Positions 27,445-43,047 of a stretch of DNA of 64,000 bases are shown one piece after another. The notes below the pieces were generated by a model. The model was not told where the DNA came from. It did no database searches and was given only the letters and a program-made list of their open reading frames with translations. The stretch comes from Rikenella microfusus (GTDB lineage: Bacteria > Bacteroidota > Bacteroidia > Bacteroidales > VadinHA17), in NCBI GenBank assembly GCA_020722575.1, contig DYKN01000001.1, positions 130,795 through 194,794 of the forward strand. Direction: 5' to 3'. The position numbers and the translations under genes are program-made. How positions within the stretch are numbered: the first letter of the stretch is position 1; each line of letters starts with the position of its first letter.

Positions 27445-27480
27445 CCCCCATTACATTATGTGAAATTGTAATGGGGTTTC
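27445..27480 (+). terminator. Intrinsic terminator after groES
   Basis: A 10-bp stem, CCCCATTACA / TGTAATGGGG, is followed by TTT. Confidence 0.6.
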
Positions 27481-27526
27481 CCGTAATATTAAGCGTTAAT
27501 TAATTTAATATAAAAATAAGCTGTAA

Positions 27527-27949: not shown

Positions 27950-28097
27950 TGGGTGATTTGGGAAATAAGCAGCTCACCGGTCTTACAATGCCAGATTAAA
28001 AGCGCCAGGGACTCCATTAGTTGTAAAAAATAGAGTATTAAATATTATAGTTGACATTAATCCCAAAAAAGGATTTAAAAACAATAAAATATTTGTT

Positions 28098-28858: not shown

Positions 28859-28929
28859 TAGCAGGAATAGTATTACCTTCGGTCTGTTACTTTTAATTTC
28901 AGACTACCAGTATCCGTAAAATATTTTTT

Positions 28930-30150
28930 ATGACTTTGCCCCGTGAAATATCGAACCATAATTTTTATGCCTTTTTATGGCATGCGGGGTTTCTGGCTCT
29001 GGCACAGAATTTTATGGATGTAGATACAGTAATGCCTGCCATGATAATCGATTTTGGGGGAAAGGCTATGCATATTGGAGTTATGACAACTATTATGATG
29101 GGCGGTTCGAGTTTTACACAGTTGTTCTTTGCTCCGTATATCAGCAGCAAATCTTTCAAAAAGAAATATTTACTAATGGGAATTAATTCCCGGGTATTAT
29201 CACTTTTTGCTCTGGGATTCATTCTGTTTTTTCTTCATGGCTATCAGACAAATTTGATCTTATGGCTTATTTTTTTGTTTATTTCACTTTTTTCGCTTGG
29301 CGGTGCCTTTACAAATATAAGTTATACTGATATTTTGGGTAAAAGTGTAAATGAAAATAAAAGAAAAAAATTCTTCTCTACCAAACAAATCATAGCAGGG
29401 ATTTTAGTATTATTTTCAGCTTTTGTAGCTAAGAAAATTTTATCCTCTTCACCATATCCCCTGAATTATTCATATATGTTTTTTGCCGGGGGATCTCTTT
29501 TGCTGATTGCAACAGGGGGGTTCTGGAAAATAAGGGAGGCTATCCCATCAACTTTAAAAATTAAAGGTTTTAAAGAATTTATCTCAACACTCAGATCAGA
29601 ATTGACACATAATAGTAAACTTGCTTATTTCCTGGGTTTTATAAATACTCAGGGAATTATTATTTCATTCATGCCTTTTGTAATGCTTTATGCCAAGAAT
29701 ACATTGAATACTCAAAGTATTGACACGGGATACTTCCTTCTTTTCAAAGTTACAGGCATTTTAATTATTAGTCTGTTCGTGTTTTTTACATCTAAATGGA
29801 TTAAATATAACCCGCTTCTTTATATAAATGTTGTTTTATCTCTTCTGGTTATTATTATGACATTACTTGTACATGATGGTCATAGCCTGAGGTATATTTT
29901 TATTTTTGGAGGTGTCATATATTCCCTGTATTCGATAACAATGAATGGATTATTACTGGAGGTTTCGAGCAGAGAAAACCGGGCACTTTATGCTGGCTTT
30001 GCAGGAGCAGGGAATATTCTGCCTGCTGTTTTTCCGCTTATCGGAGGATTGATTATCAGCAGGTTTGGATTTATTGCGTTTTTCCTTTTGTTCATGATAA
30101 TTGTATTATTATCAGCTTATTTTATCAGAAAAATAGGCTGTAAAAAATAA
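28930..30150 (+). CDS. MFS transporter
   Basis: 406 aa with about 12 hydrophobic helices in a 6+6 layout and a basic central loop. Confidence 0.8.
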   Translation: MTLPREISNHNFYAFLWHAGFLALAQNFMDVDTVMPAMIIDFGGKAMHIGVMTTIMMGGSSFTQLFFAPYISSKSFKKKYLLMGINSRVLSLFALGFILFFLHGYQTNLILWLIFLFISLFSLGGAFTNISYTDILGKSVNENKRKKFFSTKQIIAGILVLFSAFVAKKILSSSPYPLNYSYMFFAGGSLLLIATGGFWKIREAIPSTLKIKGFKEFISTLRSELTHNSKLAYFLGFINTQGIIISFMPFVMLYAKNTLNTQSIDTGYFLLFKVTGILIISLFVFFTSKWIKYNPLLYINVVLSLLVIIMTLLVHDGHSLRYIFIFGGVIYSLYSITMNGLLLEVSSRENRALYAGFAGAGNILPAVFPLIGGLIISRFGFIAFFLLFMIIVLLSAYFIRKIGCKK

Positions 30151-30161
30151 AATGAAAAAAT

Positions 30162-30572
30162 ATGAAACTATTAATGGTCTATTGTAAAAATTTTGGCTAC
30201 ACTCCAACAATAAAAACATTGGATAATGCTCCTGAAAATGTTACGCCCGCAAATTATGAAAATGTCCAGGTGGCATTTATTCAGGTTGAGAAAGAAGATG
30301 AAGGAAGGGAGAGCGATGTGGAAAAGAAACTTGTGAAGAATCTTAAATGGGTGTGCGGTAAAAACAATGTAAATAAAATTATTCTTCATTCATTTGCACA
30401 TCTTTCTGAAAGCAAGGCTGAACCGGAGTTCACAAAGCTTATATTTGAAAGAACAGAAGAACGGCTGTCAAATGCCGGGTTTTCAGTCATCCAGACCCCG
30501 TTTGGTTATTTTCTTGATTTACGGTTAGATGCTCCCGGCTTTTCACTCGCCCGTGTTTTTAAAAATATTTAA
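30162..30572 (+). CDS. Stand-alone archaeal-type threonyl-tRNA synthetase editing domain (tRNA-Thr_ED / DTD2-like)
   Basis: 136 aa. It is collinear with my recollection of the Pyrococcus ThrRS N-terminal editing domain: VAFIQVEKEDE, ILHSFAHLSESKAEP and TPFGYFLDL. Confidence 0.7.
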   Translation: MKLLMVYCKNFGYTPTIKTLDNAPENVTPANYENVQVAFIQVEKEDEGRESDVEKKLVKNLKWVCGKNNVNKIILHSFAHLSESKAEPEFTKLIFERTEERLSNAGFSVIQTPFGYFLDLRLDAPGFSLARVFKNI

Positions 30573-30588
30573 TCTTATACATATATCT

Positions 30589-31242
30589 ATGAATAATAAA
30601 ATTTATCCCGATTCGGGTGTTGAACTAAATTCCTTTATAGCCAGGAATTATGATAGGGTAATGAATATCGGTTCCTTTGGAATGTACAGCAGTTTCATAA
30701 AAAATGCGATCAGTAAAATGGATATAAGGCCAGATGATCAGATCCTTGATTTAGGATGCGGAACAGGCAGGAATGCCAATCTGATGCGCAAATATTTAAG
30801 CGATAAGGGCCATATAACAGGATTGGATATTTCTGAACATATGGAAAAACAATTCCGGCATAGATTTAATGACGATAAAAGAATTGAGTTTATAAACAGA
30901 AGAATAGATCAGCCGCTAAACCTTCAAAATAGCTATGATAAAATTTTTATAAGTTTTGTAATTCATGGATTTCCACATGAAATTAGAGGTACCGTTATTA
31001 AAAATGCTTATAACCACCTAAAACCAGGAGGAGCCTTTTTTATACTTGATTTTGGTGAATTCGATATGAATGAAATGCCATGGTTTGACCGTTTAATATT
31101 TAAAAAGATTGAATGCAAATACGCTTTTGATTATATAAAACGCGACTGGAAAGAGATTCTCAGTAGTTATGGTTTCGGAAATTTCGCCGAGTATTTTTAT
31201 TTAAAAAAGTATGTCAGGTTATTGAAAGCCGTAAAACAATAG
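30589..31242 (+). CDS. Class I SAM-dependent methyltransferase
   Basis: Motif I reads ILDLGCGTGRN and post-I reads GLDIS. ATG at 30589 avoids the overlap with the previous gene that the track start at 30529 creates. Confidence 0.8.
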   Translation: MNNKIYPDSGVELNSFIARNYDRVMNIGSFGMYSSFIKNAISKMDIRPDDQILDLGCGTGRNANLMRKYLSDKGHITGLDISEHMEKQFRHRFNDDKRIEFINRRIDQPLNLQNSYDKIFISFVIHGFPHEIRGTVIKNAYNHLKPGGAFFILDFGEFDMNEMPWFDRLIFKKIECKYAFDYIKRDWKEILSSYGFGNFAEYFYLKKYVRLLKAVKQ

Positions 31243-31245: not shown

Positions 31246-31812
31246 ATGTTAAAAAGATTATTTTTATTCCTGATTGTTAACAGCTTAATGGCATATAGCA
31301 TGAGTGGACAGGATACAATTAAACAAATAATATATAAACCCATAGGGGTTTTCCATACTCCATTTACACCCAAAACGGGAGCTCCTCGCCAGGGTATATT
31401 GATGCCTGAAACCAAAGGAACAATTGAAATTTTTCCCCCGTATCGAGGTGCTTTAAAAACACTGGATTTCTTCGAATATATTATAGTGCTTTTCCATTTC
31501 AACGAAGTGGAGCAATGGGCACCCACGGTAAACCCTCCGGCCTCAACAGAAAAACATGATTTCGGACTATTTTCCACACGCAGTCCCAAACGACCAAATC
31601 CAATAGGACTTTCCATTGTAAAACTTGAAAAGATTCAGGATGGTACTTTATATGTTTCCGGGATTGATGCTTTTGAAGGTACTCCCGTGCTGGATTTAAA
31701 GCCATACCTGCCTTCAGTAGATTGTGTGAAAAGCATTGTAAACGAATATATGGAAAAAGAGCTGGGGCATCATGATGAAAAATTTATCAACGATTCAACT
31801 TTCTTTAAATAG
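31246..31812 (+). CDS. TsaA/TrmO-like (UPF0066) protein with N-terminal signal peptide, paralogue 1
   Basis: TsaA blocks PIGVFHTPF..GAPRQG, FEYIIVLFHF, FSTRSPKRPNPIGLSIVKL and IDAFEGTPVLDLKPY are present. They are preceded by MLKRLFLFLIVNSLMAYSMSGQ. Confidence 0.8.
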   Translation: MLKRLFLFLIVNSLMAYSMSGQDTIKQIIYKPIGVFHTPFTPKTGAPRQGILMPETKGTIEIFPPYRGALKTLDFFEYIIVLFHFNEVEQWAPTVNPPASTEKHDFGLFSTRSPKRPNPIGLSIVKLEKIQDGTLYVSGIDAFEGTPVLDLKPYLPSVDCVKSIVNEYMEKELGHHDEKFINDSTFFK

Positions 31813-32069
31813 GAGCAAATAAGCACATGCAGTCAGTCATAAAATCACAAAAATGGTGTATCAAAGGATCACTCTGGTTTCTGAAAATCAGGCTAAATAG
31901 TTACCAGGTAAAAACAGATATCGATGCTTAAAATTAAAATAATTATATCTGGAAATATCCGGATAACAAAATCAGACGCCGGGTATTCATTATTCGATAT
32001 TATAAGAATAAATGGGTTATTAAATTAAACTAATAAATGCAACTTTTTTAGAGGAGATAAGCATTAAAT

Positions 32070-32288
32070 ATGAATTTTGTTAAATATAGCATAAAAGATA
32101 TGACCAAAACAGCTCCTTTTGACAATCACTTTCCGGAGTATGAACAATGGTTTATTGATAATCATTTTGCTTTTCTCTCTGAGATTGAAGCTATACGTAA
32201 ATTATTGCCAACTAATGGCAAAGGTGTTGAAATTGGAATCGGCAGCGGCAAAGGCAGTTTCTTTGTAATTAAAGCAAATAAAAATTAA
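32070..32288 (+). pseudogene. Truncated SAM-methyltransferase fragment
   Basis: The N-terminal region runs up to motif I (GVEIGIGSG) and then loses homology. It terminates after 72 codons. Confidence 0.5.
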
Positions 32289-32302
32289 AAGATCCTGCAG
32301 GC

Positions 32303-32527
32303 ATGTCTGAAACTGATAAGAAAAATGATTTTATCCTTAAAGTAAACCAATTTATCAGAGAAGAAAAATATGGTGAGGCAGTTAACTATTTACAAAAAAT
32401 TATCGAGGCAGATAGCACCAATAAAGAAGCAGTATCCCTTATGGAACAATTGAAGAAAATACTTGAATATCGGAACCGTGATATATTTGGGTCAACAAAT
32501 CTAGATATGGATCCATGGTTTGAATAA
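32303..32527 (+). CDS. Small hypothetical protein (single TPR-like helix pair)
   Basis: 74 aa. KYGEAVNYLQKIIEADSTNKEAV is TPR-like. No other recognisable motif. Confidence 0.4.
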   Translation: MSETDKKNDFILKVNQFIREEKYGEAVNYLQKIIEADSTNKEAVSLMEQLKKILEYRNRDIFGSTNLDMDPWFE

Positions 32528-32566
32528 ATATAATGGCAATCAATTAAAGTTCTAATATTAATAAAG

Positions 32567-34423
32567 ATGAGAAACTTAAAGAATAAATTCATTATGGCCC
32601 CTTTGAAGCTGGGGTATGCTGAAAACGGATTTGTTAATGAGAGGCACATTGATTTTTATGAAAAAAGAAGCCATCATATAGGTGCCGTAACCCTGGAACC
32701 TTTATATCTTGATAAGGGATTAAGAGAAATCCCCACGCAACTCGGTATTGATGATGATGATAAAATACCCGGACTTACCAGGCTCGTTGACATGTTGCAT
32801 AAAAACGGCACTAAAGTGATTGCACATCTGAACCATCCCGGTAGAATGGCAAATCCAAAGATTCCTGGAAATTACTTCTGGTCATCAACTGATTTAGCCT
32901 GTGAAAATGGGGGCGCTAAACCGGAGATGATGACCCGTGATATGATGAACAGGGTTATAAATATGTTTGTTGAAAGTGCAAAAAGGGCAGTGCTTTGCGG
33001 ATTCGATTTTATTGAACTGCAATTCGGGCATGGGTATCTTCTCGCTCAGTTTTTATCACCTGCAGTAAACAACCGTTCTGATTTTTATAATGGTTCTCTT
33101 CAGGACAGAGCCAGGTTCCCCCTTGAAGTTTTGAATGCTGTAAGGCAAAAAGTGAAAATACCAATAATAGCCAGGATCAGTGGCGACGAGATAATACCTT
33201 CCGGATTACATATCGCTGAGATGAAACATTTCTCACTGATGCTTGAAGCCGGGGGTGTAAATGCTATTCATGTTTCTGCCGGCTCAGCCTGTTCCACACC
33301 TCCATGGTTTTTTCAGCACATGTTCGTGCCAAAAGGAAAAACATGGGAATTTGCCGGAGAAATAAAAAAGAGTGTAAAAATACCGGTAATATTCGTAGGT
33401 CAGGTTAACACCAGGGAAGGTATTCAGTTACTTGAACAGAAATATCATGCTGAATATATCGCATTGGGGCGGGCTCTGGTAGCTGATCCTGACTTTACAG
33501 GGAAATACTTTGGACTCGTTGCCGGAAATATCAGGCCATGTCTTGCGTGCTCAGATGGGTGTCTTGGCAATGTAAGAAGCGGGAAAGGATTGGGATGCGT
33601 AGTCAATCCATATGTTAACAATACACTGCCTCCTCTCAGGAAGGTTAAATCATCTGAGAAAATTGCAATAATCGGAGGTGGATTAGCTGGAATGCAGGCT
33701 GCCATTGTTTTGAAAGAAAGAAATTTTGAACCGACAATTTTCGAGAAAAACAAACTGGGGGGTCAGTTTAACCTTGCATACCTCCCTCCTAAAAAAGAAA
33801 ACCTTAAAAAAATTATTGATTATTATGTTGCTGAAATCAACCGGATGAAAATACCTGTCATCTATAAAGAAGCTGAAGCACAGGATATTCTCAATGGCAA
33901 TTTTAACCGGGTAATTATTGCAACCGGTGCAATACCTTCCATCCCGGCTATCAAAGGATTGAAAGAATACTATTGCGCAGATTACCTGCAGAGCGATCAG
34001 CTTCCGCATGATCAAACAGTTCTAATAATCGGTGGCGGATTAATAGCCCTTGAAATGGCATCAAAATTAATTGACAGAAAAAATAAGGTTATTATAATTG
34101 AGCTTCTCGACGAAATTGGCCGTGGCATGGAGATGCTCGAAAAAGCGTTTACCTTAAAGAAACTATCTGATAATAACACTCTGATTTATAAAAAGCATAA
34201 AATAGTTGAAATAGACGAACACACGGTGTATATTGAAGATGAAAATAATCACAAATCAAAAATTGAAGGTGTAGCTAAAATTATTGTCGCTGCAGGAATG
34301 AAAAGTTATATCCCATTTACCACCGATTTAAAGATACCTGTACATTTAACCGGAGATGCAAAATCAGTTGGGAAAGCAGAGAATGCTATCTATGATGCCT
34401 GTAACCTGGCTTTAACATTATAA
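32567..34423 (+). CDS. Old-yellow-enzyme family NADH:flavin oxidoreductase fused to an FAD/NAD(P)-binding domain (2,4-dienoyl-CoA-reductase-like)
   Basis: The OYE TIM-barrel blocks HLNHPGRMAN and GFDFIELQFGHGYLLAQFLSP are present. A Cys cluster CLACSDGCLGN....GC follows, then two Rossmann motifs, GGGLAGMQAA and IIGGGLIALE. Confidence 0.85.
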   Translation: MRNLKNKFIMAPLKLGYAENGFVNERHIDFYEKRSHHIGAVTLEPLYLDKGLREIPTQLGIDDDDKIPGLTRLVDMLHKNGTKVIAHLNHPGRMANPKIPGNYFWSSTDLACENGGAKPEMMTRDMMNRVINMFVESAKRAVLCGFDFIELQFGHGYLLAQFLSPAVNNRSDFYNGSLQDRARFPLEVLNAVRQKVKIPIIARISGDEIIPSGLHIAEMKHFSLMLEAGGVNAIHVSAGSACSTPPWFFQHMFVPKGKTWEFAGEIKKSVKIPVIFVGQVNTREGIQLLEQKYHAEYIALGRALVADPDFTGKYFGLVAGNIRPCLACSDGCLGNVRSGKGLGCVVNPYVNNTLPPLRKVKSSEKIAIIGGGLAGMQAAIVLKERNFEPTIFEKNKLGGQFNLAYLPPKKENLKKIIDYYVAEINRMKIPVIYKEAEAQDILNGNFNRVIIATGAIPSIPAIKGLKEYYCADYLQSDQLPHDQTVLIIGGGLIALEMASKLIDRKNKVIIIELLDEIGRGMEMLEKAFTLKKLSDNNTLIYKKHKIVEIDEHTVYIEDENNHKSKIEGVAKIIVAAGMKSYIPFTTDLKIPVHLTGDAKSVGKAENAIYDACNLALTL

Positions 34424-34514
34424 CTAGCTCCTTTTAAAAAACATATTAATCAATATAAATCTTTGCCAGAGCGAAAAAAAGTTATATATTTGAGCGAGGT
34501 TTTCATTGTTAAAA

Positions 34515-34883
34515 ATGATATTATACTTTTTAAAACAGTTTTATAGAAAACTACCCGGATACTTCCTGTTAATAATCTTTTGCGGGTATTTTACATCTGT
34601 TACATTCTTTCCTCATACTCATATAGTTGACGGAGTTACTATTGTACATTCACACCCTTATAAATCTCATTCGGGAAATGTTCCGGTTAATCACAACCAT
34701 TCAAAAGATGGATTTATTCTGATACATTTCATTTCGCATTTTAAAGTTACTGCTCCTGTAATATTTTTTGTGATCGCGATTTTTGTTAAGGTTTTAAATA
34801 CCAGAATTCTCTTCCCTGATACAAATATTAATTTTTCTTTTTTTCATTACTCGCCTCATCTTCCGAGAGCACCTACTTCATAA
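34515..34883 (+). CDS. His-rich small membrane protein upstream of the TonB-dependent receptors
   Basis: Two or three hydrophobic helices. A loop carries 9 His in 28 residues: HTHIVDGVTIVHSHPYKSHSGNVPVNHNH. Confidence 0.5.
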   Translation: MILYFLKQFYRKLPGYFLLIIFCGYFTSVTFFPHTHIVDGVTIVHSHPYKSHSGNVPVNHNHSKDGFILIHFISHFKVTAPVIFFVIAIFVKVLNTRILFPDTNINFSFFHYSPHLPRAPTS

Positions 34884-34963
34884 TTACACAATCAGCCTTT
34901 TCAGAGAATTACAGATTTTCTGTTTTATCCAAGACTCACCTTAATAATCACATTGTTTAATAT

Positions 34964-34995
34964 TTAAAGTTAATGTTCAACGTTTAAAGTTAATA
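34964..34995 (+). repeat. 12-nt direct repeat TTTAAAGTTAAT x2, spaced 20 nt start to start, directly upstream of the TBDR start
   Basis: Copies lie at 34964-34975 and 34984-34995. The ATG is at 34998. Confidence 0.7.
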
Positions 34996-34997
34996 TT

Positions 34998-37442
34998 ATG
35001 AAGAAATATATATTAGTTTTATATATATGCGTTATTTTTACTCAATCCCTTTTTCCCCAGAAAAAAACAGATGCAAATGTTTTTGGACATGTAACAGGTA
35101 ACAATACACACATTCCTTTTGCAACAGTCAGCATAAAGGGAACGACAATAGGGGTGAATACAGACGAAACAGGTCATTATCAACTGATTAATTTACCTGA
35201 AGGAACTTATACACTCGTTGCCCGATATGTTGGTTTTAAAAATTCAGAAAAGGAGATTACAATCAAAGCAGGAGAAACACTGGAAGTGAACTTTGATCTT
35301 GAGCAGGATGTTCTTGGTCTTGATGAGGTTGTTGTAACGGCCGATAGAAGCGAGATGAAGAGGACAGAATCAGTCACAATAGTGAATACTCTCTCTCCCA
35401 GGCTCTTTTCTTCTGCCCAGTCAGTAACATTAAGTGAAGGGTTAAGTTTTTCTCCGGGCATCAGAATTGAAAGTAATTGCCAGAACTGTGGTTTTTCACA
35501 GGTCAGGATGAACGGCATGGAAGGCCATTATTCACAGATACTTATTAATAGTCATCCGATATTCAGCGGTCTTGCCGGTGTTTATGGGCTTGAACTTATT
35601 CCCACCAACATGATAGAGCGTATTGAAGTGGTAAGGGGAGGTGGTTCTGCCCTTTATGGTAGCAATGCAATCGCCGGCACAATAAATATTATTTTGAAAG
35701 AACCGGTTTCAAATTCCTACGAAGCTGGCATTAATACAGGACTGATTGGCATCGGATTAAAGCAATCAGGAGGAGCAGCTCTTGATTACTCGGCAGATCT
35801 CAATACATCTATTGTTTCTGACAACAGCAAAACCGGTATGGCTCTTTATGGATTTACTCGTGAAAGAAAAATGTTCGATTCAAACAATGATGGTTATTCC
35901 GAAATAGCTCCAATGAATGATCAGACAATCGGGGCCAGATTCTTTCATAGATTTGGGGTAAGAAGTAAAATAGCTATTGACTTTTACAATATTAAAGAGG
36001 AAAGGAATGGTGGAAACAGGCAAGAGTACCCTTTGCATGAAAGAGATATTGCAGAAGCTGTAAAACACGATTTTAAAACCGGTGCGTTAACTTATGAGAA
36101 ATATTTCCGCGATTATGATCTTTTTTCTGTATTCTTTTCCGCACAATATATAACGCGCAATTCATACTACGGGGCCAACCGGTCACTTAAAGATTATGGC
36201 ACGACAGAAGGACTGACATATAATACAGGCATACAATATAAAGCCTTCTTTGGCAATTCTTCTATTGTTGCAGGAATTGAAAATACAGGAGATTATCTGA
36301 AAGACCAGAAATTGGGATACCCCGATTATGCAAATGCTGTAATTATTAATGATTCAATAGTAAGTGTCCCTCATACCGATAATATCCTGATTTCTGACCA
36401 GTCATCCATCTCATCCGGTATATTTCTTCAGTATGACCTGAAAATAAACAGGTTAAAAGTTGGACTTGGCGGACGTTTTGATCATTTCAACGTGGTTGAT
36501 CATGCAAAAAACAATGAAGCAAAAAGCGGAAATGTTTTAAGTCCCCGTATAAGTTTTATGTATGAAGTTCTTAGTTCACTGCAGGCCCGGGTAAGCTATT
36601 CACATGGTTACAGGGCGCCACAGATCTTTGATGAAGATCTGCATATCGAGACATCCGGTTCACGGCAGGTTATTAATGTAAATGATCCGCATCTGAAACA
36701 GGAAACCAGCCACAGTATTATGGCTTCACTCGATTTCAACAAGCTTATCGGTACTGTTACAACCGGACTTTTAATTGAAGGATTTTATACCAGGCTGCAA
36801 AATCCGTTTGTTAATGAAATCGGCATACCTGATGAAACCGGAAAAGTCTTATACACAAGAAAAAATGCAGAAAACGGAGCTGTGGTTAAAGGACTGAACA
36901 TGGAACTCAAGTTTAAAACATTGTGGAACTTTTCAATAATATCAGGATTCACGGTTCAGTCAAGTCGTTATGATGTTGCACAGCAATTCAATAAAAGAGA
37001 ATTCTTCCGCACACCTTCTGACTATGGTTATCTGAACATTGACTGGGATTTTGCGAGAAACGCGGGTCTTTCCGGCACTGGAACTTATACAGGAAGGATG
37101 CTTGTACCCTATTTCGGACCTTTGACTGACCCTGAAACCGGCGAATTAAGAAAATCTCACCCATTTTTCGATCTTGGTGGTAAAATTTATTACAATATAC
37201 CATTAAATGGCACTTCACTTCAAATCTTTGCCGGCATAAAAAATATATTCAATTCATATCAGTCAGATTTTGATACAGGCATTGACCGTGACCCCTCATA
37301 TATTTATGGACCCATATTGCCCAGGACTGTTTATTTCGGAATTAAGGCCGGGAATAAACTATCCCAAAGGGTACAGCCAGTTTATCAACACCAGAAAAGA
37401 AACAGAATACGCAACCAGTGGAAGGGAAACAAACCCGGTTAA
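34998..37442 (+). CDS. TonB-dependent receptor (CarboxypepD_reg + plug + barrel)
   Basis: Has a signal peptide, the CarboxypepD_reg block GHVTGNN..IPFATVSIKGT, plug blocks with CQNCGFSQVRMNG and IERIEVVRGGGSALYGSNAIAGTINI, and a long beta-barrel. An unusual basic tail of about 30 aa follows the apparent last strand. Confidence 0.9.
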   Translation: MKKYILVLYICVIFTQSLFPQKKTDANVFGHVTGNNTHIPFATVSIKGTTIGVNTDETGHYQLINLPEGTYTLVARYVGFKNSEKEITIKAGETLEVNFDLEQDVLGLDEVVVTADRSEMKRTESVTIVNTLSPRLFSSAQSVTLSEGLSFSPGIRIESNCQNCGFSQVRMNGMEGHYSQILINSHPIFSGLAGVYGLELIPTNMIERIEVVRGGGSALYGSNAIAGTINIILKEPVSNSYEAGINTGLIGIGLKQSGGAALDYSADLNTSIVSDNSKTGMALYGFTRERKMFDSNNDGYSEIAPMNDQTIGARFFHRFGVRSKIAIDFYNIKEERNGGNRQEYPLHERDIAEAVKHDFKTGALTYEKYFRDYDLFSVFFSAQYITRNSYYGANRSLKDYGTTEGLTYNTGIQYKAFFGNSSIVAGIENTGDYLKDQKLGYPDYANAVIINDSIVSVPHTDNILISDQSSISSGIFLQYDLKINRLKVGLGGRFDHFNVVDHAKNNEAKSGNVLSPRISFMYEVLSSLQARVSYSHGYRAPQIFDEDLHIETSGSRQVINVNDPHLKQETSHSIMASLDFNKLIGTVTTGLLIEGFYTRLQNPFVNEIGIPDETGKVLYTRKNAENGAVVKGLNMELKFKTLWNFSIISGFTVQSSRYDVAQQFNKREFFRTPSDYGYLNIDWDFARNAGLSGTGTYTGRMLVPYFGPLTDPETGELRKSHPFFDLGGKIYYNIPLNGTSLQIFAGIKNIFNSYQSDFDTGIDRDPSYIYGPILPRTVYFGIKAGNKLSQRVQPVYQHQKRNRIRNQWKGNKPG

Positions 37443-37526
37443 GATTTAAGGCACTGTTTATTACATAACCCTTTGTTTAAGGATAATTTTTAAAATAAGA
37501 AAACGGGAATTTTTAAATGAAATAAA

Positions 37527-39782
37527 ATGAAGAAAATCGTTTTAATTTTCTTTGTGTTGTTTCTTTTATTAAAAGTAAGCGCTCAGAATCAAATTAAAGG
37601 ATTTGTAAGCGATACAGATAAACAACCTTTGGCAGGCGCAACAATTTTTCTTCCAGAACTCAATAAGGGCACAACAGCCAGCCAGACAGGAGAGTTTTTG
37701 ATCACCAATGTACCAACAGGCAAAGTGAGAATTCAGTTTTCCTTTATTGGGTACAATACTCAGGTAAAAACAATTGAGGTTTTACCTGGCGACAATATTG
37801 TGAATATTCAATTAACCACTTCTGTAATCCAATCGCAGGAAGTGGTAGTTTCAGGCGGATACGTGAGTTCACAACATGAAAATGCCGTAAAAATTGATAT
37901 ATTGAGAAGCAAAGATATTTTGCTTTCCGGAACGCCAAATTTCATGGAATCTATTACCCTGGTCCCGGGTGTTGACATGATTTCAAAAGGACAGGGTGTT
38001 TCAAAACCTGTTATCAGGGGACTTTCAATGAATGATATCCTGGTATTAAATAACGGCGTTCGTATTGAAAATTACCAGTTCAGTGAAAACCACCCGCTTG
38101 GGATAGACGATAATGATGTTGACAGGGTTGAGGTTATAAAAGGGCCGGCATCCCTGCTTTATGGTTCTGATGCTATCGGCGGGGCTTTAAACTTTATTAA
38201 GGAAAGTCCTGCGCCAACAGGTAAAGTAATCGGCGATTACCGGATACAACTACACTCTAATACACTTGGGATGAATAATAGTATGGGATTAAAAGGTTCT
38301 TCGGAACATTTTTTCGGAGGGTTAAGGGTTGGTAATAAAACTCATGCCGACTATAGAGAGGGAGGTGGCTATTATGTTCCAAACTCAAGGTTCAGAGAAT
38401 GGTCAGTTAGCGCTAATTCCGGATATACTGGGAAAATCGGGACATTTAAAATACTATACGACTATTTCAAACAAGATTTAGGGATGACTGTTCCGGCGGT
38501 AATACCTTTAATTACCGGACAAGGCAGACATAATGAAATCTGGTATCAGGATCTGGACCATCATCTGGTTTCTTCTCAAAATAAGTTATATATCGGCAGA
38601 TTTAAATGGGAAACCAATATATCATATCAGAGTGCATTGAGGAAGCTGCAAACAACATTGGAAGTTCCCTTTGTGGAAATGAATCTTAATACAGTTACTT
38701 ATGAATCAAAACTGTATCTGCCTTCCGGTAAAAACTCAGAGTTTATCATAGGCATACAGGGAATGGATCAGACTAACCGCAATAAAAACGATCGGGCATC
38801 TCAGTTTTTGCCAGATGCAGATGTAAATAATATTGGAGGAGTAGCTCTGGCAAAATATACTTTTTTTGAAAAATTTTCTCTGCAGGGAGGTCTTCGCTAT
38901 GATATATATAAAACTGAAACATATGCACTTGGGACAGAAGAAACGGATAGTTATCATGCACCTGTATTAAAGAATTTTTCGAGCCTTAGTGGTTCTTTAG
39001 GTGCAACTTACAACATAAATGATAAGTGGATTTTCAGAACAAATTTTGCTAAAGCATATCATGTGCCAAATCTGTCTGAGTTAACATCGAACGGGATGCA
39101 CGGGAACAGGTATGAAACAGGTAATGAAAATCTGAAGCCCGAAGATGCATATGAATTTGATGCAAGCCTGCATTACCATGGAGTGTATCTTTCATTCGAT
39201 TTAGCAGGGTTTTATAACCATATAATTAACTATATCTATATTTCGCCAACAGCTGATACTACATCAACGGGAGTGGATATTTACAGGTTTTCACAAAGCA
39301 ATGCTAATCTTTTTGGAGGAGAAGCAGGTATTCATTTTCATCCCGAATTAATGCCCTGGCTGCATATTCAGGTTACATATTCTTCTGTCATTGGCCGACA
39401 GGAAAATGGGAATTTTCTTCCTTTTATTCCGGCCCATAAGTTTCGTTATGAAATAAGAGCCGATTACAAAAAATTAGGATTCTTGAACCATTCTGCCATA
39501 AAACTATCCGCTCTCACCGCGTTAAAGCAGGATAAACCATCGCCTTATGAGACTGAAACGGACGGATACACGCTTATAAACCTGAGTTTCAACACTGATA
39601 TAAATGTATTTAAACAAACACTGGTTTTTGGTATTTCTGCAAATAATATATTTGATATCAGATATTACGACCATCTTTCCACGTTAAAGCCTTTAAATTA
39701 TTATAATCAGGGCAGAAATATTTCAGTATTTTTGAAGATACCGTTTGAAACAAACATGATATGCAAAAGCAAGCACTTGTAA
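37527..39782 (+). CDS. TonB-dependent receptor (CarboxypepD_reg + plug + barrel)
   Basis: Has a signal peptide, GFVSDTDKQPLAGATIFL, DRVEVIKGPASLLYGSDAIGGALNF and a beta-barrel. An 11-aa tail follows the ...FLKIPF strand. Confidence 0.9.
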   Translation: MKKIVLIFFVLFLLLKVSAQNQIKGFVSDTDKQPLAGATIFLPELNKGTTASQTGEFLITNVPTGKVRIQFSFIGYNTQVKTIEVLPGDNIVNIQLTTSVIQSQEVVVSGGYVSSQHENAVKIDILRSKDILLSGTPNFMESITLVPGVDMISKGQGVSKPVIRGLSMNDILVLNNGVRIENYQFSENHPLGIDDNDVDRVEVIKGPASLLYGSDAIGGALNFIKESPAPTGKVIGDYRIQLHSNTLGMNNSMGLKGSSEHFFGGLRVGNKTHADYREGGGYYVPNSRFREWSVSANSGYTGKIGTFKILYDYFKQDLGMTVPAVIPLITGQGRHNEIWYQDLDHHLVSSQNKLYIGRFKWETNISYQSALRKLQTTLEVPFVEMNLNTVTYESKLYLPSGKNSEFIIGIQGMDQTNRNKNDRASQFLPDADVNNIGGVALAKYTFFEKFSLQGGLRYDIYKTETYALGTEETDSYHAPVLKNFSSLSGSLGATYNINDKWIFRTNFAKAYHVPNLSELTSNGMHGNRYETGNENLKPEDAYEFDASLHYHGVYLSFDLAGFYNHIINYIYISPTADTTSTGVDIYRFSQSNANLFGGEAGIHFHPELMPWLHIQVTYSSVIGRQENGNFLPFIPAHKFRYEIRADYKKLGFLNHSAIKLSALTALKQDKPSPYETETDGYTLINLSFNTDINVFKQTLVFGISANNIFDIRYYDHLSTLKPLNYYNQGRNISVFLKIPFETNMICKSKHL

Positions 39783-39881
39783 ACATAATTTTTTTAATAT
39801 GTGGATTCTCCCGCTGGAGCGGGACAGGTTGTCATACCTTTAAAATAAAAATTATATTTATGATAAAATAAAGTAATAAAA

Positions 39882-40757
39882 ATGATTTCACAAACAACTG
39901 TTAAACAGATTGCTGCCATACATGATCTGTCAGGATTGGGAAGAACTTCCCTTTCGGTTGTTATCCCTATCTTATCAGTCATGGGGATAAAAGTTTGTCC
40001 GCTGCCTACTGCCGTTTTATCTTCTCACAGCCGCTATGAAGGATATCATTTTGTCGATCTGACTGATCATATGCAATCTGTAATTGATCATTGGATAAAA
40101 TTAAATGTTTCATTTGATGCTATTTACAGCGGATTTCTGGGATCATATCTGCAGATTGATATCGTTAGGGATATGATTGATGCATTCAGTAGTGAGAATC
40201 AATTAGTTGTTATTGATCCTGTTTTGGGAGATAATGGGAAAATGTACGGACCCATAAGCATTGAAATGGTTTCTGAAATGAGGTCGCTGATACAAAAAGC
40301 AGATATTATTACCCCGAATTTAACTGAGGCATTTTTATTACTTGATGAGCCGTTTCATTCAAATATCAGTGAAAATAACATAAAAGAATATTTGTTAAGA
40401 TTATCGGATATGGGACCTGACATGGTAGTAATTACCGGTTTCCAGGAAGATTCTTCAATGAGTAAATTTTCTGTAATAGCATATAATAAAAATGATTCAC
40501 GTTTCTGGAAGGTCCCCATAGATTATATTCCGGCTGATTTTCCTGGAACAGGCGATTGTTTTACGAGCGTATTAACAGGCGCTTTATTGCAGGGCGACAG
40601 TCTGCCAATAGCTCTCGATAGGGCCGTGCATTTTATATCTTGTGGAGTAAGGGCAACATTAGGATATAAATATGATCAGAACCAGGGAATACTGTTAGAA
40701 CGAATTCTGAATCGTTTAAATTTTCCGATTCCCGTGGGCAGTTATGAGGTTTTCTGA
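39882..40757 (+). CDS. Pyridoxal/pyridoxamine kinase family (PfkB-like ribokinase fold)
   Basis: Has IAAIHDLSGLGRTSLSVVIPILS, DPVLGDNG, ITPNLTEA and the C-terminal GTGDCFTS. Confidence 0.7.
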   Translation: MISQTTVKQIAAIHDLSGLGRTSLSVVIPILSVMGIKVCPLPTAVLSSHSRYEGYHFVDLTDHMQSVIDHWIKLNVSFDAIYSGFLGSYLQIDIVRDMIDAFSSENQLVVIDPVLGDNGKMYGPISIEMVSEMRSLIQKADIITPNLTEAFLLLDEPFHSNISENNIKEYLLRLSDMGPDMVVITGFQEDSSMSKFSVIAYNKNDSRFWKVPIDYIPADFPGTGDCFTSVLTGALLQGDSLPIALDRAVHFISCGVRATLGYKYDQNQGILLERILNRLNFPIPVGSYEVF

Positions 40758-40794
40758 TAAATAAAGGAGATTATCATTTTTACATTGGCTGTTA

Positions 40795-40968
40795 AAACAA
40801 ATTAAGATTATAAATCCGAAAATTCCGGCATTATTAGGCGCTACCGTATTGAAATATATGGCAGGTGAAGGCTATAAAATAACCCGCGAACACGGAAGCT
40901 GGTCTGACTGGCAAAACCGTCTTGCCATGCCGGTTTATCATCCGGCTGCATTGCCACGGGGGACTTAA
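40795..40968 (+). pseudogene. C-terminal fragment of a family-4 uracil-DNA glycosylase
   Basis: The frame has no start and reads ..IINPKIPALLGATVLKYMAGEGYKITREHGSWSDWQNRLAMPVYHPAALPRGT*. This matches the UDG4 C-terminal pattern (LG..A...RG.W....HPA.LLR). Confidence 0.5.
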
Positions 40969-41069
40969 AAAGAAATACATTGACAGGTTTTAAGAAAATT
41001 TTTTACAAATACTGTGAAGTGGTGAATCCACAACATCATTCTCCGTATATTATACCCAAAAAACGATCA

Positions 41070-41642
41070 ATGATAAAAAAGCAAATTATATTTATTTTCA
41101 TTTTAGGATTTTATTTGATACCACTGAAAGGACAGGAGAAAATAAAGCAAACAATAACCTATACTCCTATTGGAGTTTTTCATACGGGTTATACGCCTGA
41201 AACCGGAGCTCCACGACAGGGCATTCTCATTCCAGGAGGAAAAGGTAAGATTGAAATATATCCTGAATATCGCGAAGCGTTAAAAGCATTGGAACTATTT
41301 GAATACATAATAGTTATATATCATCTTGACAAAGCAGTAAGCTGGAGCCGGACAGCAAAACCGCCGGCATCCAACCCGGATTATACATTTGGCCTTTTTG
41401 CTACACGAAGTCCCAACCGGCCGAATCCTATCGGAATTGCAACCATTAAACTTGAAAAAATTGAAAATGGCACCCTGTATGTTTCAGGGATTGATGCATT
41501 TGACGGTACTCCCGTGCTTGATATTAAACCATACCTGCCTTCAATAGACGGAGTTAAAAGTTTTAAAAATGAACTGATTGAAAAAGAACTGGGACTTCAT
41601 GGTACTAATAATATTAATGACAGACCGTCAGTAAAGAAATAA
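41070..41642 (+). CDS. TsaA/TrmO-like (UPF0066) protein with N-terminal signal peptide, paralogue 2
   Basis: About 60-65% aa identity by eye to 31246-31812. It has the same TsaA blocks, preceded by MIKKQIIFIFILGFYLIPLKGQ. The track start at 40980 would add an implausible leader. Confidence 0.8.
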   Translation: MIKKQIIFIFILGFYLIPLKGQEKIKQTITYTPIGVFHTGYTPETGAPRQGILIPGGKGKIEIYPEYREALKALELFEYIIVIYHLDKAVSWSRTAKPPASNPDYTFGLFATRSPNRPNPIGIATIKLEKIENGTLYVSGIDAFDGTPVLDIKPYLPSIDGVKSFKNELIEKELGLHGTNNINDRPSVKK

Positions 41643-41716: not shown

Positions 41717-42526
41717 CTAAACCGGAAAAGAATCGCCGTCCTGATCTTTAATATATGCTTTTATGATATCAAAAATATCTGTCACTTCTGTCATTTCTGG
41801 AAGAGTTTCTCTCAGGGTTTCAATATATCGCCGGTTTTTAACACATTCAAACGTTGGTTTAAAATTAATATCATAAATCCATCCTGCCTGGAGTAATTTG
41901 ATATCATTAACGTTTTTAACATTTTTCATATCAACAATCTGCCTGTTCATTAGCGCTTTATAAACTTCTTCGGAAATTCCCGGAGTGTCAGGCAATTCAA
42001 GTTCGAGAGCAACATTCCGCCTTCCGTTTTTTCTGTGATAATAGCTTGTAACCACTCTCCATATATCAAGTTTATCAGCATCGCGAATAAGTTTGGAATA
42101 GAAGAGGCATGTTTCTGTTTCTTCACCCGGGAGGGAAGCCCGGTTATGATATCTTATTGAGCATAAAATCAGATTCTGAATTTCTTCATTTAATATACCA
42201 AGAACATTATATCTTGTTAAAATTTTTATACCCAGTTCAGCGTGATCCTCTGATTTATGGTCTGAAAATGTTTTATACCGGTTATATTGTTCAAACCTGC
42301 CAATATCATGAAAGAGTGCAATTATTTCAGCCAGATTCAGCTCATTATCATTTAACCCGAGCTGTTTCCCTATGTTAATAATTTCTTCAATTACCCTTTC
42401 TGTATGTTCTCTCTTAATATCTATGTTGCGCTCTAATTCAGGGTTTTTGTAATTAAATGTATGCACATAGTCTGTAAACCAGTTTTTAAGATCATGCACA
42501 ATTTTTTTATCCATTAATATTTTCAT
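41717..42526 (-). CDS. HD domain phosphohydrolase
   Basis: 269 aa. Has H...HDIGR (LFHDIGRFEQ) and a downstream DADKLD. Its start overlaps the stop of the upstream NifX-like gene by 4 nt (ATGA). Confidence 0.8.
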   Translation of the reverse strand: MKILMDKKIVHDLKNWFTDYVHTFNYKNPELERNIDIKREHTERVIEEIINIGKQLGLNDNELNLAEIIALFHDIGRFEQYNRYKTFSDHKSEDHAELGIKILTRYNVLGILNEEIQNLILCSIRYHNRASLPGEETETCLFYSKLIRDADKLDIWRVVTSYYHRKNGRRNVALELELPDTPGISEEVYKALMNRQIVDMKNVKNVNDIKLLQAGWIYDINFKPTFECVKNRRYIETLRETLPEMTEVTDIFDIIKAYIKDQDGDSFPV

Positions 42527-43047
42527 CTGCCTCTTCCTCCCCTGCCTTTTCCGCCACCGATTCCTCTTCCCAATCCGCCACCCATGCCTCTGCCCATTCC
42601 GCCACCGATGCCTCTTCCCATTCCTCTGCCATCTCTTTGATCCGTGCCCATACTTCTGCCTGTTCCGTTTCTGCCATCGCCATCATTTGCTTTGCGTGCT
42701 GAATGAATACTATCTTTTAATGTCGGCTCTTTCAATACCTGAATCTCATCATTCTTAACTTTTCTTACTGCTTCATTAACAGACATATTACGGCACAGGT
42801 AAACTTTACAGCCGTAAGATAATACTTCGCTGTATAATGACGGACCGATATTGCCGACAATAACCTTTTTAATTGCCGGGGTAATAAATTTTCCGATGTT
42901 CTGAACTTCATCTTTACTTACCCCAGTGAAAGCTTCAAATTCCATGGTCAACGGATCTATTATAAGGAAATAATCTGAATGACCGAATCTGCCTGATACT
43001 TTTGAATCCAATGTATCACCTGATGATGCAATTAAATATTTTTCCAT
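42523..43047 (-). CDS. NifB/NifX-family domain protein with C-terminal Gly/Arg/Met-rich repeat tail
   Basis: The N-domain reads IASSGDTLDSKVSGRFGHSDYFLIID. The tail reads GRGMGRGIGGGMGRGMGGGLGRGIGGGKGRGGRGR. Confidence 0.75.
   Translation of the reverse strand: MEKYLIASSGDTLDSKVSGRFGHSDYFLIIDPLTMEFEAFTGVSKDEVQNIGKFITPAIKKVIVGNIGPSLYSEVLSYGCKVYLCRNMSVNEAVRKVKNDEIQVLKEPTLKDSIHSARKANDGDGRNGTGRSMGTDQRDGRGMGRGIGGGMGRGMGGGLGRGIGGGKGRGGRGR

What the first reader, a model, noticed from the sequence alone, without database searches (positions are those of the whole stretch)
31246..41642. Two signal-peptide-bearing TrmO/TsaA-like paralogues bracket a TonB-receptor block
Both proteins (31246-31812 and 41070-41642) keep the TsaA core blocks: PIGVFHT..GAPRQG, RSPxRPNPIG and GTPVLDxKPY. 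Both also start with a basic residue pair followed by a hydrophobic segment of about 17 residues ending in GQ, which is a typical Bacteroidota secretion signal.

Canonical TrmO is a cytoplasmic SAM-dependent tRNA methyltransferase. An exported version cannot see tRNA or SAM, so this must be a neofunctionalised subfamily.

The two copies lie in direct orientation. They flank the OYE reductase, a His-rich membrane protein, two TonB-dependent receptors and a pyridoxal-kinase-like gene. This hints at a periplasmic role in uptake or processing of a small molecule or metal chelate.
Basis: partly seen in the sequence, partly recalled or inferred. Interest (0 to 1): 0.6.

Follow-up and report, generated by a model that had tools for sequence, protein, structure and literature searches.

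The report
Exported TrmO-like proteins in anaerobes
Two genes annotated as a cytoplasmic tRNA methyltransferase (TrmO) belong to an undescribed branch of that family that is exported from the cytoplasm yet keeps its S-adenosylmethionine pocket intact, and their position beside TonB receptors here is a local accident.

Summary
Both ORFs (31246-31812 and 41070-41642) are single-domain TrmO_N proteins, 65% identical, and are the only TrmO_N genes in this genome.

Each starts with a basic pair, a hydrophobic core and a G|Q cleavage site. About 190 close homologues keep this signal: Q at +1 in 116 of 120 and G/A/S at -1 in 111 of 120, which fits the Bacteroidota Q-rule. Sister lineages carry lipoprotein lipoboxes instead. 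In a family tree the signal-bearing proteins form one clade next to archaeal AF0241.

The proteins lack the TrmO C-terminal DPRxxY domain, so they are not canonical tRNA m6t6A methyltransferases. However, all four AdoMet-contacting residues are invariant in 59 of 59 exported sequences.

The TonB link is not supported. Only 1 of 24 other loci has a TonB receptor nearby, which matches chance, and that receptor is not orthologous. Copy 2 is preceded by the stump of a uracil-DNA glycosylase gene, which marks a rearrangement.

The conserved neighbours are NifX-like proteins, class I methyltransferases, a radical SAM enzyme, an MFS transporter, an MBL hydrolase and an FNR/Crp-controlled thiol-redox array.

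Function is unknown. The best guess is a periplasmic binder or enzyme for an AdoMet-like ligand.

The parts
31246..31812 (+). TrmO_N paralogue, copy 1 (188 aa). Predicted Sec/SPI signal covers residues 1-21 (31246-31308). The mature protein starts at Q22 (31309).
   Evidence: PF01980 and TIGR00104 hits. Signal conserved in orthologues. AF2 model has pLDDT 85.5; residues 2-18 are helical and lie outside the barrel.
41070..41642 (+). TrmO_N paralogue, copy 2 (190 aa). Predicted Sec/SPI signal covers residues 1-21 (41070-41132). The mature protein starts at Q22.
   Evidence: Orthologues P0271-P0339 keep the signal. Sits in a separate subclade from copy 1.
40771..41069 (+). 3' remnant of a family-4 uracil-DNA glycosylase gene. 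It is split over two frames and the first 100 codons are missing.
   Evidence: tblastn with the 202-aa UDG of L073: residues 101-163 match at 78% and residues 167-201 at 66%, in different frames. Intact DUF134-UDG-TrmO_N operons occur in L073/L074, L077 and L012.
23655..24347 (-). Crp/FNR-family regulator, divergent from the array that ends with copy 1.
   Evidence: PF00027 and PF13545. The same arrangement occurs in L003, L009, L075 and L084.
24574..31242 (+). Co-directional array upstream of copy 1. Order: MrpORP-C-like, thioredoxin-like, TrxB, Grx/Trx, Cpn10, OsmC, DUF59 (FeS_assembly_P), NifX-like, MFS, free-standing tRNA-Thr_ED domain, class I SAM methyltransferase.
   Evidence: Syntenic in L003 and L078, and largely so in L006, L007 and L009.
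32567..34423 (+). OYE/FadH-type Fe-S flavoenzyme (618 aa). It is a recurrent member of the island.
   Evidence: PF00724 and PF07992. Orthologues lie near TrmO_N in L006, L007, L008, L012 and L089.
34506..34883 (+). Small His-rich membrane protein that leads the receptor operon. Not part of the TrmO_N unit.
   Evidence: No Pfam or NCBIfam hit. Homologues lead ZnuABC or CzcB-type RND operons in L073, L075 and L076.
34998..39782 (+). Two TonB-dependent receptors (814 and 751 aa). They are a separate, probably metal-uptake, operon that lies between the two paralogues.
   Evidence: NCBIfam TonB receptor subfamilies, all below trusted cut-offs. Not a conserved neighbour of TrmO_N.
39882..40757 (+). 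Pyridoxamine kinase. It is a recurrent island gene.
   Evidence: NF005491 at 376 bits. Orthologues lie 2-4 genes from TrmO_N in L006, L007 and L008 without any receptor in between.
41717..43047 (-). HD-domain protein and NifX-like (IssA-like, RG-tailed) protein, convergent with copy 2.
   Evidence: PF01966 and PF02579. The same pair lies downstream of TrmO_N in L007.
43627..44115 (+). Decayed MBL-fold hydrolase gene. In relatives the intact gene is the commonest immediate downstream neighbour of copy-2-type TrmO_N.
   Evidence: Matches only residues 1-163 of the 259-aa orthologue, with an in-frame stop at 44020-44022. Intact MBL genes occur in L012, L073, L075 and L076.

Best explanation
Each gene encodes a small protein made of one TrmO_N (YaeB-like) beta-barrel, preceded by a cleavable Sec signal peptide.

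Shown:
- The proteins belong to a coherent clade of TrmO_N proteins whose members all carry a type I signal (Q at +1 in Bacteroidota) or a lipoprotein signal.
- The clade occurs patchily in strictly anaerobic Bacteroidales. It is also found in one Fibrobacterota MAG and in two unassigned metagenome contigs with sigma-54 and multihaem contexts.
- It coexists with, or replaces, cytoplasmic TrmO_N forms.
- Members lack the TrmO C-terminal domain.
- The barrel and the four residues that hold the amino-acid head group of AdoMet are strictly conserved.

Inferred:
- After export and cleavage (with pyroglutamate formation in Bacteroidota), the protein sits in the periplasm, or is lipid-anchored there, probably as the family's usual homodimer.
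- It binds AdoMet or another molecule with the same alpha-amino-acid head group.
- It acts on, or holds, a small molecule rather than tRNA.
- It works as the extracytoplasmic member of an accessory island specific to anaerobes. That island is under an FNR/Crp-type (and DUF134) regulator. It encodes NifX/ORP-like metal-cluster carriers, thioredoxin reductase, glutaredoxin and OsmC, class I methyltransferases, a 315-aa radical SAM enzyme, an OYE Fe-S flavoenzyme and an MFS (elsewhere EamA) transporter that could deliver the ligand.

The two copies are old paralogues. Their bracketing of the TonB-receptor operon results from local reshuffling.

My confidence that the protein is exported and is not the tRNA enzyme is about 0.85-0.9. 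My confidence in the AdoMet-like-ligand, periplasmic small-molecule mechanism is about 0.35. The figure given is for the statement as a whole.
For: Signal:
- In 120 full-length homologues, 114 have a hydrophobic core and 111 have K/R in the n-region. Position +1 is Q in 116, -1 is G/A/S in 111, and -3 is M/L/S/V/I/T.
- This fits the Bacteroidetes Q-rule (PMC5837995, PMC10653852).
- Ten Bacteroidales genomes carry lipobox versions such as ...LLTSC...LLSC and ...FAC.
- Relatives outside Bacteroidota also carry signals.
- In orthologous operons the long start overlaps the upstream stop codon.
- The '167-171 aa' database forms are caller truncations or a homopolymer frameshift.

Clade: 47 of 49 rows in one clade were scored as SP/SPII and the other two are heuristic misses. 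The label clustered in 0 of 500 shuffles.

Not canonical TrmO: only the TrmO_N domain is found and the tail has no DPRxxY motif. The genome has no other TrmO_N gene. A Fibrobacterota contig carries both an exported form and a 267-aa TrmO_N-containing form.

Pocket: the AF0241 AdoMet contacts Q22, R82, D111 and K122 (PMC4132733) correspond to Q49, R112, D141 and K152. These are invariant in 120 close homologues (one N at D141) and in 59 of 59 exported sequences (one E at D141).

Fold: the AF2 model has pLDDT 85.5. The best PDB match is AF0241 with SAM (2nv4), TM-score 0.94 on the target, rmsd 1.5 A.

Context: a NifX-like gene lies within five ORFs in at least 12 of 26 cases against about 0.6 expected. 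Class I MTase occurs in 8, MBL in 7, and MFS and OYE in 5 each. At genome level the MFS orthologue co-occurs with the exported clade (5 of 12 against 16 of 189; Fisher p = 0.004).
Against:
- AdoMet is not known to occur in the bacterial periplasm, and Sec exports unfolded chains, so a bound cofactor cannot be carried out. The strict conservation of the AdoMet residues is therefore unexplained. It may reflect structure (K152 crosses the dimer interface) rather than ligand binding.
- Every conserved neighbour is cytoplasmic, and none is an obligate partner. The MFS is absent from 7 of 12 genomes that have the exported clade.
- The neighbourhood is heterogeneous in the lipoprotein subclade.
- The free-standing ThrRS editing domain in the same array and the TrmO fold both have tRNA-Thr as their canonical substrate. 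That would fit a cytoplasmic, tRNA-linked role better.
- The clade branch has only 81-88% SH-aLRT support.
Confidence: 0.6

Rival explanations
1. Ordinary cytoplasmic TrmO_N methyltransferase with a miscalled start. Translation would begin at the Met two to three residues before the conserved Q, and the upstream hydrophobic codons would not be translated.
For: A Met lies at -3 in 56 of 120 homologues. Many database entries of 167-171 aa start there. The AdoMet residues are intact. A tRNA-Thr editing-domain gene lies in the same array.
Against: - More than half of the homologues have no Met there.
- The upstream frame stays open, hydrophobic and K/R-initiated despite sequence divergence.
- Lipobox-bearing sister lineages have no equivalent inner start.
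- The long ATG overlaps the upstream stop in several operons.
- Q at +1 is 97% conserved, which has meaning only as a cleavage product.
Confidence: 0.05
2. Dual-localised protein. The first ATG would give the exported form. In the lineages that have it, the inner Met would give a cytoplasmic, AdoMet-dependent isoform, and this would keep the pocket under selection.
For: Met at -3 is unusually frequent for a signal-peptide c-region (47%). This reading would explain why the AdoMet site is conserved in a protein that is exported unfolded.
Against: The pocket is equally invariant in lipoprotein and non-Bacteroidota members that lack the inner Met. Met is an acceptable -3 residue. There is no evidence for an internal ribosome-binding context.
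Confidence: 0.1
3. One reading: a periplasmic component of a TonB-dependent uptake pathway for a metal chelate or vitamin. The protein would bind the cargo delivered by the adjacent receptors.
For: - Window layout.
- One other locus (L088) has TonB receptor, DUF59, TrmO_N lipoprotein, a 174-aa protein and a second TonB receptor in that order.
- His-rich-protein-led metal transport operons lie beside copy-2-type genes in L073, L075 and L076.
- A TM-HMA-TrmO_N fusion exists (P0262).
Against: - A receptor lies within five ORFs in 1 of 24 other loci against 1.8 expected.
- The L088 receptors are not orthologues of those in the window (27% identity in the plug only, and no significant match).
- The UDG stump shows the junction upstream of copy 2 is a rearrangement.
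- Close relatives have the same island genes with no receptor (L003, L006, L007).
Confidence: 0.1
4. The conserved 'AdoMet' residues are purely structural, and the exported barrel is a ligand-free scaffold or chaperone-like periplasmic protein.
For: K152 reaches across the dimer interface in AF0241 (PMC4132733). No periplasmic source of AdoMet is known.
Against: The whole set of family motifs lining the pocket is invariant, not only the interface residue: PRQG, TRSPxRPNPIG and DxxxGTPVLDxKPY. Selection this strict is unusual for a scaffold.
Confidence: 0.15

Closest known systems
TrmO (YaeB) of Escherichia coli, tRNA m6t6A37 methyltransferase (class VIII AdoMet methyltransferase; PMC4132733)
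   Same: Same N-terminal beta-barrel domain (PF01980) and the same family motifs. All four AdoMet-contacting residues are conserved (Q25, R92, D125 and K136 in E. coli numbering).
   Different: The window proteins have no C-terminal domain and no DPRxxY motif, which is required for activity in E. coli. They carry a cleavable export signal. They are about 165 residues when mature, against 235. Their genomic context is an anaerobic redox and metal-cluster island.
AF0241 of Archaeoglobus fulgidus (PDB 2nv4), a short archaeal YaeB homologue crystallised with endogenous AdoMet; function unknown
   Same: Closest solved structure (40% identity, TM-score 0.94, rmsd 1.5 A). It is a single domain with a short C-terminal helix, and it falls in the group next to the exported clade.
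   Different: AF0241 has no signal peptide and is cytoplasmic. The source paper itself doubts that archaeal homologues make m6t6A.
Short cytoplasmic 'GxPIQ'-type TrmO_N proteins of Bacteroidales (155-180 aa)
   Same: Same domain and similar length. They occur in the same order and sometimes in the same operon (L089).
   Different: They have no N-terminal extension. Their motif is GxPIQ rather than TGAPRQG. They sit in a separate clade.
Bacteroidota Q-rule substrates of signal peptidase I (PMC5837995, PMC10653852)
   Same: Cleavage site with a small residue at -1 and Gln at +1 (116 of 120 homologues).
   Different: The Q-rule describes how these proteins are exported. It says nothing about what they do.

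Membership tests
TrmO_N / YaeB-like beta-barrel superfamily (PF01980) | Significant match to the domain model over its full length | tested here: met
   E 1.8e-37 and 7.3e-37, covering profile positions 1-116 of 116.
TrmO_N / YaeB-like beta-barrel superfamily (PF01980) | Single-sheeted beta-barrel fold like the solved members | tested here: met
   AF2 model has pLDDT 85.5. The top ten PDB hits are all YaeB/TrmO structures; the best is 2nv4 with target TM-score 0.94.
TrmO_N / YaeB-like beta-barrel superfamily (PF01980) | AdoMet-contacting residues (AF0241 Q22, R82, D111, K122) | tested here: met
   Q49, R112, D141 and K152 are present in both copies. They are invariant in 59 of 59 exported sequences, with one D-to-E change.
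TrmO proper (tRNA m6t6A37 methyltransferase, TIGR00104 equivalog) | C-terminal domain with the DPRxxY motif, required in E. coli | tested here: not met
   Only TrmO_N is found. The tails are VNEYMEKELGHHDEKFINDSTFFK and KNELIEKELGLHGTNNINDRPSVKK, with no DPRxxY. The requirement is from PMC4132733.
TrmO proper (tRNA m6t6A37 methyltransferase, TIGR00104 equivalog) | Cytoplasmic location with access to tRNA and AdoMet | tested here: not met
   Conserved Sec/SPI or SPII signal. This is a sequence inference only; no predictor or experiment was available.
TrmO proper (tRNA m6t6A37 methyltransferase, TIGR00104 equivalog) | Score above the curated model cut-off | tested here: met
   143.8 and 132.1 bits against 93.25. 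This explains the 'TrmO' names given by NCBI and JGI. I regard that annotation as probable over-annotation.
TrmO proper (tRNA m6t6A37 methyltransferase, TIGR00104 equivalog) | N6-methylation of t6A37 in tRNA-Thr(GGU) | not testable with these tools
   Needs tRNA LC-MS from a host strain with and without the genes.
Sec/SPI-exported Bacteroidota proteins (Q-rule) | Basic n-region, hydrophobic h-region, small residue at -1 and Gln at +1 | tested here: met
   Both copies show this pattern. In 120 homologues the counts are 111, 114, 111 and 116 respectively.
TonB-dependent uptake locus component | Conserved co-location with a TonB-dependent receptor across genomes | tested here: not met
   1 of 24 other loci against 1.8 expected, and the receptors are not orthologous.

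The most novel reading that the evidence does not exclude
The clade is a true extracytoplasmic AdoMet-dependent methyltransferase. It would be supplied with AdoMet by the co-encoded MFS (or, in Fibrobacterota, EamA/DMT) transporter. It would methylate a periplasmic small molecule or metal(loid)/sulfur species as part of an oxygen- or redox-controlled programme in anaerobes. That would be the first periplasmic AdoMet-using enzyme system in bacteria, with a dedicated cofactor exporter.
Probability: 0.1. Interest if true: 0.85.

Novelty: new variant of a known kind. Interest (0 to 1): 0.55.

Why it matters
TrmO/YaeB is the only class VIII AdoMet methyltransferase fold, and only one function is known for it: tRNA m6t6A formation.

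A whole clade is exported by Sec as soluble or lipid-anchored proteins and yet keeps every AdoMet-binding residue. There are two possibilities. Either the pocket has been reused for another amino-acid-bearing ligand, or AdoMet chemistry takes place outside the cytoplasm. The second has no bacterial precedent in the literature I could search.

There is also a practical point. The curated 'equivalog' model TIGR00104 and the annotation pipelines name these proteins TrmO. I think this function is very probably wrong, and the name is being propagated through hundreds of metagenome-assembled genomes.

The clade also adds an extracytoplasmic member to the poorly understood NifX/ORP-type gene islands that are specific to anaerobes.

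Tried and rejected
- Literature searches found no description of an exported member. Terms tried: TrmO with signal peptide, TsaA/UPF0066/YaeB, COG1720/PF01980/TsaA-like, and periplasmic or secreted methyltransferase.
- Recent duplication flanking an insert was rejected. The copies are 65% identical and sit in different subclades, each with its own orthologues.
- Orthology between the receptors of L088 and those of the window was rejected.
- A shared operator (the TGAACA-N2-TGTTCA palindrome from a neighbouring finding) in front of either TrmO_N gene was not found. Only the two known perfect sites exist, and near-matches are not above chance.
- The sigma-70 promoter and terminator scan was uninformative for a Bacteroidota-type genome.
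- Tat export, which would allow export with a bound cofactor, is not supported. No twin-arginine motif occurs in the clade, apart from one ambiguous RRIRYF in P0133.
- The MFS as an obligate partner was rejected. It is enriched but absent from 7 of 12 genomes that have the exported clade.
- The Pfam tally of 101 neighbours of the lipoprotein subclade gave no dominant family apart from NifX-like, with 6 members.


Full report
**What is there.**
The window has two + strand ORFs at 31246-31812 (188 aa) and 41070-41642 (190 aa). Each matches the whole TrmO_N domain model PF01980 (E 1.8e-37 and 7.3e-37). Each also exceeds the cut-off of the NCBIfam equivalog TIGR00104 (143.8 and 132.1 bits against 93.25). 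They are 65% identical. They are the only TrmO_N genes in the 3.45-Mb assembly, so there is no long canonical TrmO.

**Is the signal real?**
- Both proteins begin with M-x-K-[KR], a hydrophobic stretch, and G|Q.
- The 120 nearest homologues of copy 1 and the 69 new ones of copy 2 almost all have the same layout, although the sequence itself diverges.
- I counted features in an alignment of 120 full-length members:
  - 114 have a strongly hydrophobic 10-residue window.
  - 111 have K/R in the n-region.
  - Position +1 is Gln in 116, and -1 is G/A/S in 111.
  - Position -3 is M, L, S, V, I or T.
- This is the pattern of signal peptidase I substrates in Bacteroidota, the 'Q-rule' (PMC5837995, PMC10653852).
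- The 167-171-aa database entries are not signal-less natural variants.
  - In L007 an in-frame upstream ATG gives MTTKKYLIILILTNFSLFNMTAQ.
  - In L012 the hydrophobic codons are present but are split from their ATG by an A8 run.
  - In L005 the upstream frame is open and hydrophobic.
- In several operons the long ATG overlaps the stop codon of the upstream gene: UDG in L073 and L077, and radical SAM in L010.
- In a sample of 201 genomes of the same order, 12 carry close relatives (over 50% identity). Ten of these have a lipoprotein lipobox in place of the type I site, for example MQLKLILSIILSFFLLTSC and MNVRILFFVLFLLASC.
- The nearest clusters in a 1.8-billion-protein representative library also carry type I or lipoprotein signals. 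One of these is annotated to a Fibrobacterota MAG. More distant clusters do not carry signals.
- No signal-peptide predictor was available, so export remains a sequence inference, though a strong one.

**Phylogeny and distribution.**
- I built a maximum-likelihood tree of 228 non-redundant domains. One clade of 49 rows holds 47 rows scored as SP or SPII.
  - The two exceptions are a fragment and a sequence my heuristic missed (P0037, MKRIFLHTMMPAILFTITEAAGSGQ).
  - A neighbouring group of 11 rows is also mostly signal-bearing or membrane-anchored.
  - Archaeal AF0241 falls beside them.
  - The label is far more clustered than in shuffles (0 of 500). Support for the clade branch is only moderate (81-88% SH-aLRT).
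- Copy 1 and copy 2 lie in different, well-supported subclades (95 and 94). They are therefore old paralogues, not a recent duplication.
- The clade is accessory. It occurs in 12 of 201 genomes of the order, and a genome of the same genus has none.
- Elsewhere in the phylum the family is mostly the long canonical form, with open frames of about 240-285 aa. Within the order the main form is a short cytoplasmic 'GxPIQ' type.

**Catalytic site and fold.**
- Kimura et al. (PMC4132733) list the AF0241 residues that hold the amino and carboxyl groups of AdoMet as Q22, R82, D111 and K122, the last coming from the partner subunit. They show that the E. coli equivalents are needed for activity.
- These residues map to Q49, R112, D141 and K152. 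They are invariant in the 120-sequence alignment (one N at D141). They are also invariant in all 59 exported sequences in the tree set (one D-to-E change). That is as strict as in cytoplasmic members.
- The AlphaFold model has mean pLDDT 85.5. It places residues 2-18 as a separate helix. The barrel superposes on AF0241 with SAM (2nv4) at target TM-score 0.94 and rmsd 1.5 A. All ten significant PDB hits are YaeB/TrmO structures.
- The C-terminal DPRxxY domain is absent. The same paper shows that domain to be essential in E. coli and to be missing from archaeal homologues that probably do not make m6t6A.

**Genomic context.**
- Copy 1 is the last gene of a co-directional array that is divergent from a Crp/FNR regulator. 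The array encodes MrpORP-C-like, thioredoxin-like, TrxB, Grx/Trx, Cpn10, OsmC, DUF59, NifX-like, MFS, a free-standing ThrRS editing domain and a class I methyltransferase.
- The same array ends in a TrmO_N orthologue in L003 and L078. Largely the same gene set surrounds it in L006, L007, L009 (a complete 3.7-Mb genome) and L012.
- Copy-2-type orthologues sit in DUF134-UDG-TrmO_N operons followed by an MBL hydrolase. Nearby are DUF5320, CGGC, CCG, ParA/Mrp-ferredoxin ATPases, a 315-aa radical SAM enzyme and NifX-like genes.
- I scored 26 exported-clade genes in 25 loci. Counts within five ORFs were as follows:

| Neighbour | Cases (of 26) |
|---|---|
| NifX-like | at least 12 |
| Class I MTase | 8 |
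| MBL | 7 |
| MFS | 5 |
| OYE | 5 |
| TonB receptor | 3, of which two are the window's own two copies |

- The window's genome has 23 TonB receptors and 7 NifX-like genes. Assuming about 3000 genes, one expects about 1.8 receptor adjacencies and 0.6 NifX adjacencies in 24 loci. The observed counts are 1 and at least 11. This is a rough calculation, because the loci are not phylogenetically independent.
- The receptors in the one other positive locus (L088) are not orthologues of those in the window.
- The 313-bp spacer before copy 2 is the 3' half of a family-4 UDG gene, split over two frames. Residues 101-163 match at 78% and residues 167-201 at 66%. The kinase and receptor block was therefore joined to copy 2 by a rearrangement that destroyed its normal operon partner.
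- In L007 the order TrmO_N, URO-D-like, pyridoxamine kinase, DUF202, HD(-)..., IssA-like NifX(-) shows the ancestral neighbourhood without receptors.
- In other lineages the association with NifX and ParA-ferredoxin ('orp'-type) genes and sigma-54 activators recurs (L092). So does the radical SAM plus MFS pairing (L091). In a Fibrobacterota MAG the exported gene is followed two bases later by an EamA/DMT transporter, and a 267-aa TrmO_N-containing protein lies on the same contig.
- The orp genes are an Fe-S and metal-cluster system specific to anaerobes and under redox-sensing control in Desulfovibrio (PMC6345978, PMC8359166).

**What it most likely does.**
- Established here: these proteins are exported, they are a clade distinct from canonical TrmO, and their pocket is intact.
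- Inferred: the mature protein is periplasmic or lipid-anchored and dimeric. It binds AdoMet or another ligand with a free alpha-amino-acid head group. It acts on a small molecule as the outer arm of the island.
- The MFS orthologue is enriched in genomes with the exported clade (5 of 12 against 16 of 189; p = 0.004). It is not obligatory, so a transporter-plus-binder pair is only a hypothesis.
- The main puzzle is why an AdoMet site is kept where no AdoMet is known to exist. Candidate answers are ligand reuse, an internal-start cytoplasmic isoform (Met at -3 in 47%, but absent from lipoprotein members), a purely structural role for these residues, or exported AdoMet.
- I put about 0.35 on a periplasmic AdoMet-like-ligand function, 0.15 on a ligand-free scaffold, 0.1 on dual localisation, 0.1 on a TonB-uptake role and 0.05 on a miscalled start.

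**Comparison and novelty.**
The proteins are members of the TrmO_N/YaeB superfamily. They fail two defining features of TrmO proper: the C-terminal domain and cytoplasmic location. The 'TrmO' names attached to them by NCBI and JGI are therefore probably over-annotation driven by TIGR00104. I found no paper describing an exported member. Two earlier unchecked notes of this scan report similar signal-bearing TsaA-fold ORFs in other genomes. I classify this as a new variant of a known kind.

**Limits.**
- There was no experimental or transcript evidence.
- The signal-peptide scoring was home-made.
- Gene calls in fetched loci are simple longest-ORF calls.
- The chance baseline comes from one genome.
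- The window comes from a 207-contig MAG with 7% estimated contamination and several decayed genes near copy 2 (the UDG and MBL genes, and a ferredoxin flagged by another note).

Noticed in passing
window 40771-41069: Stump of a family-4 uracil-DNA glycosylase gene directly upstream of copy 2. It retains residues 101-201 of 202, split over two frames. Relatives have the intact UDG gene, whose stop overlaps the TrmO_N start.
   Followed up: yes
window 43627-44115: The MBL-fold hydrolase gene matches only the first 163 of 259 residues of its orthologues and has an in-frame stop at 44020-44022. This is either gene decay or an assembly error.
   Followed up: partly
window 34506-34883; L073 8055-8426; L075 9377-9775; L076 5216-5563: A family of small membrane proteins with no database match and a conserved FF.HTHI.DG..IVHSHP(F/Y)K His-rich motif. 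Members always sit as the first gene of a metal-type transport operon: TonB receptors here, ZnuABC in L073, and CzcB-type RND in L075 and L076.
   Followed up: partly
L012 about 9950-10000: An A8 homopolymer separates the ATG from the signal-peptide codons of the TrmO_N gene. One fewer A would restore MKKLYAFLLFNLLSMNAQ. This could be an assembly error or a phase-variable tract.
   Followed up: no
L089 9986-11973 (genome G591): An exported lipoprotein TrmO_N, a 311-aa radical SAM enzyme and a cytoplasmic 157-aa TrmO_N lie in a row. They are preceded by OYE, NifX-like, ARMT1-like and CGGC genes.
   Followed up: partly
L090 8001-9522 and 15033-15836 (Fibrobacterota MAG): The exported TrmO_N is followed 2 nt later by an EamA/DMT transporter, and a 267-aa TrmO_N-containing protein (canonical TrmO length) lies on the same contig. 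From my own knowledge, the DMT superfamily includes the known AdoMet carriers of Rickettsia and Chlamydia.
   Followed up: no
P0262 (representative library): A fusion of a membrane anchor, an HMA heavy-metal-binding domain (GMTCQGC) and TrmO_N. Its sister P0180 carries a plain signal peptide. This is an independent case of an extracytoplasmic TrmO_N and hints at a link to metals.
   Followed up: no
window 30162-30572: A free-standing archaeal-type ThrRS editing domain (PF08915, E 6e-39) followed by a class I methyltransferase. The pair recurs in L003, L006, L007, L012 and L083. It is curious that this domain and the TrmO fold both have tRNA-Thr as their canonical substrate.
   Followed up: partly
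window 32070-32288: A 72-aa ORF in the gap after copy 1 reads like the N-terminal fragment of a class I methyltransferase (...GKGVEIGIGSG...). It has no significant match to the neighbouring methyltransferase.
   Followed up: partly
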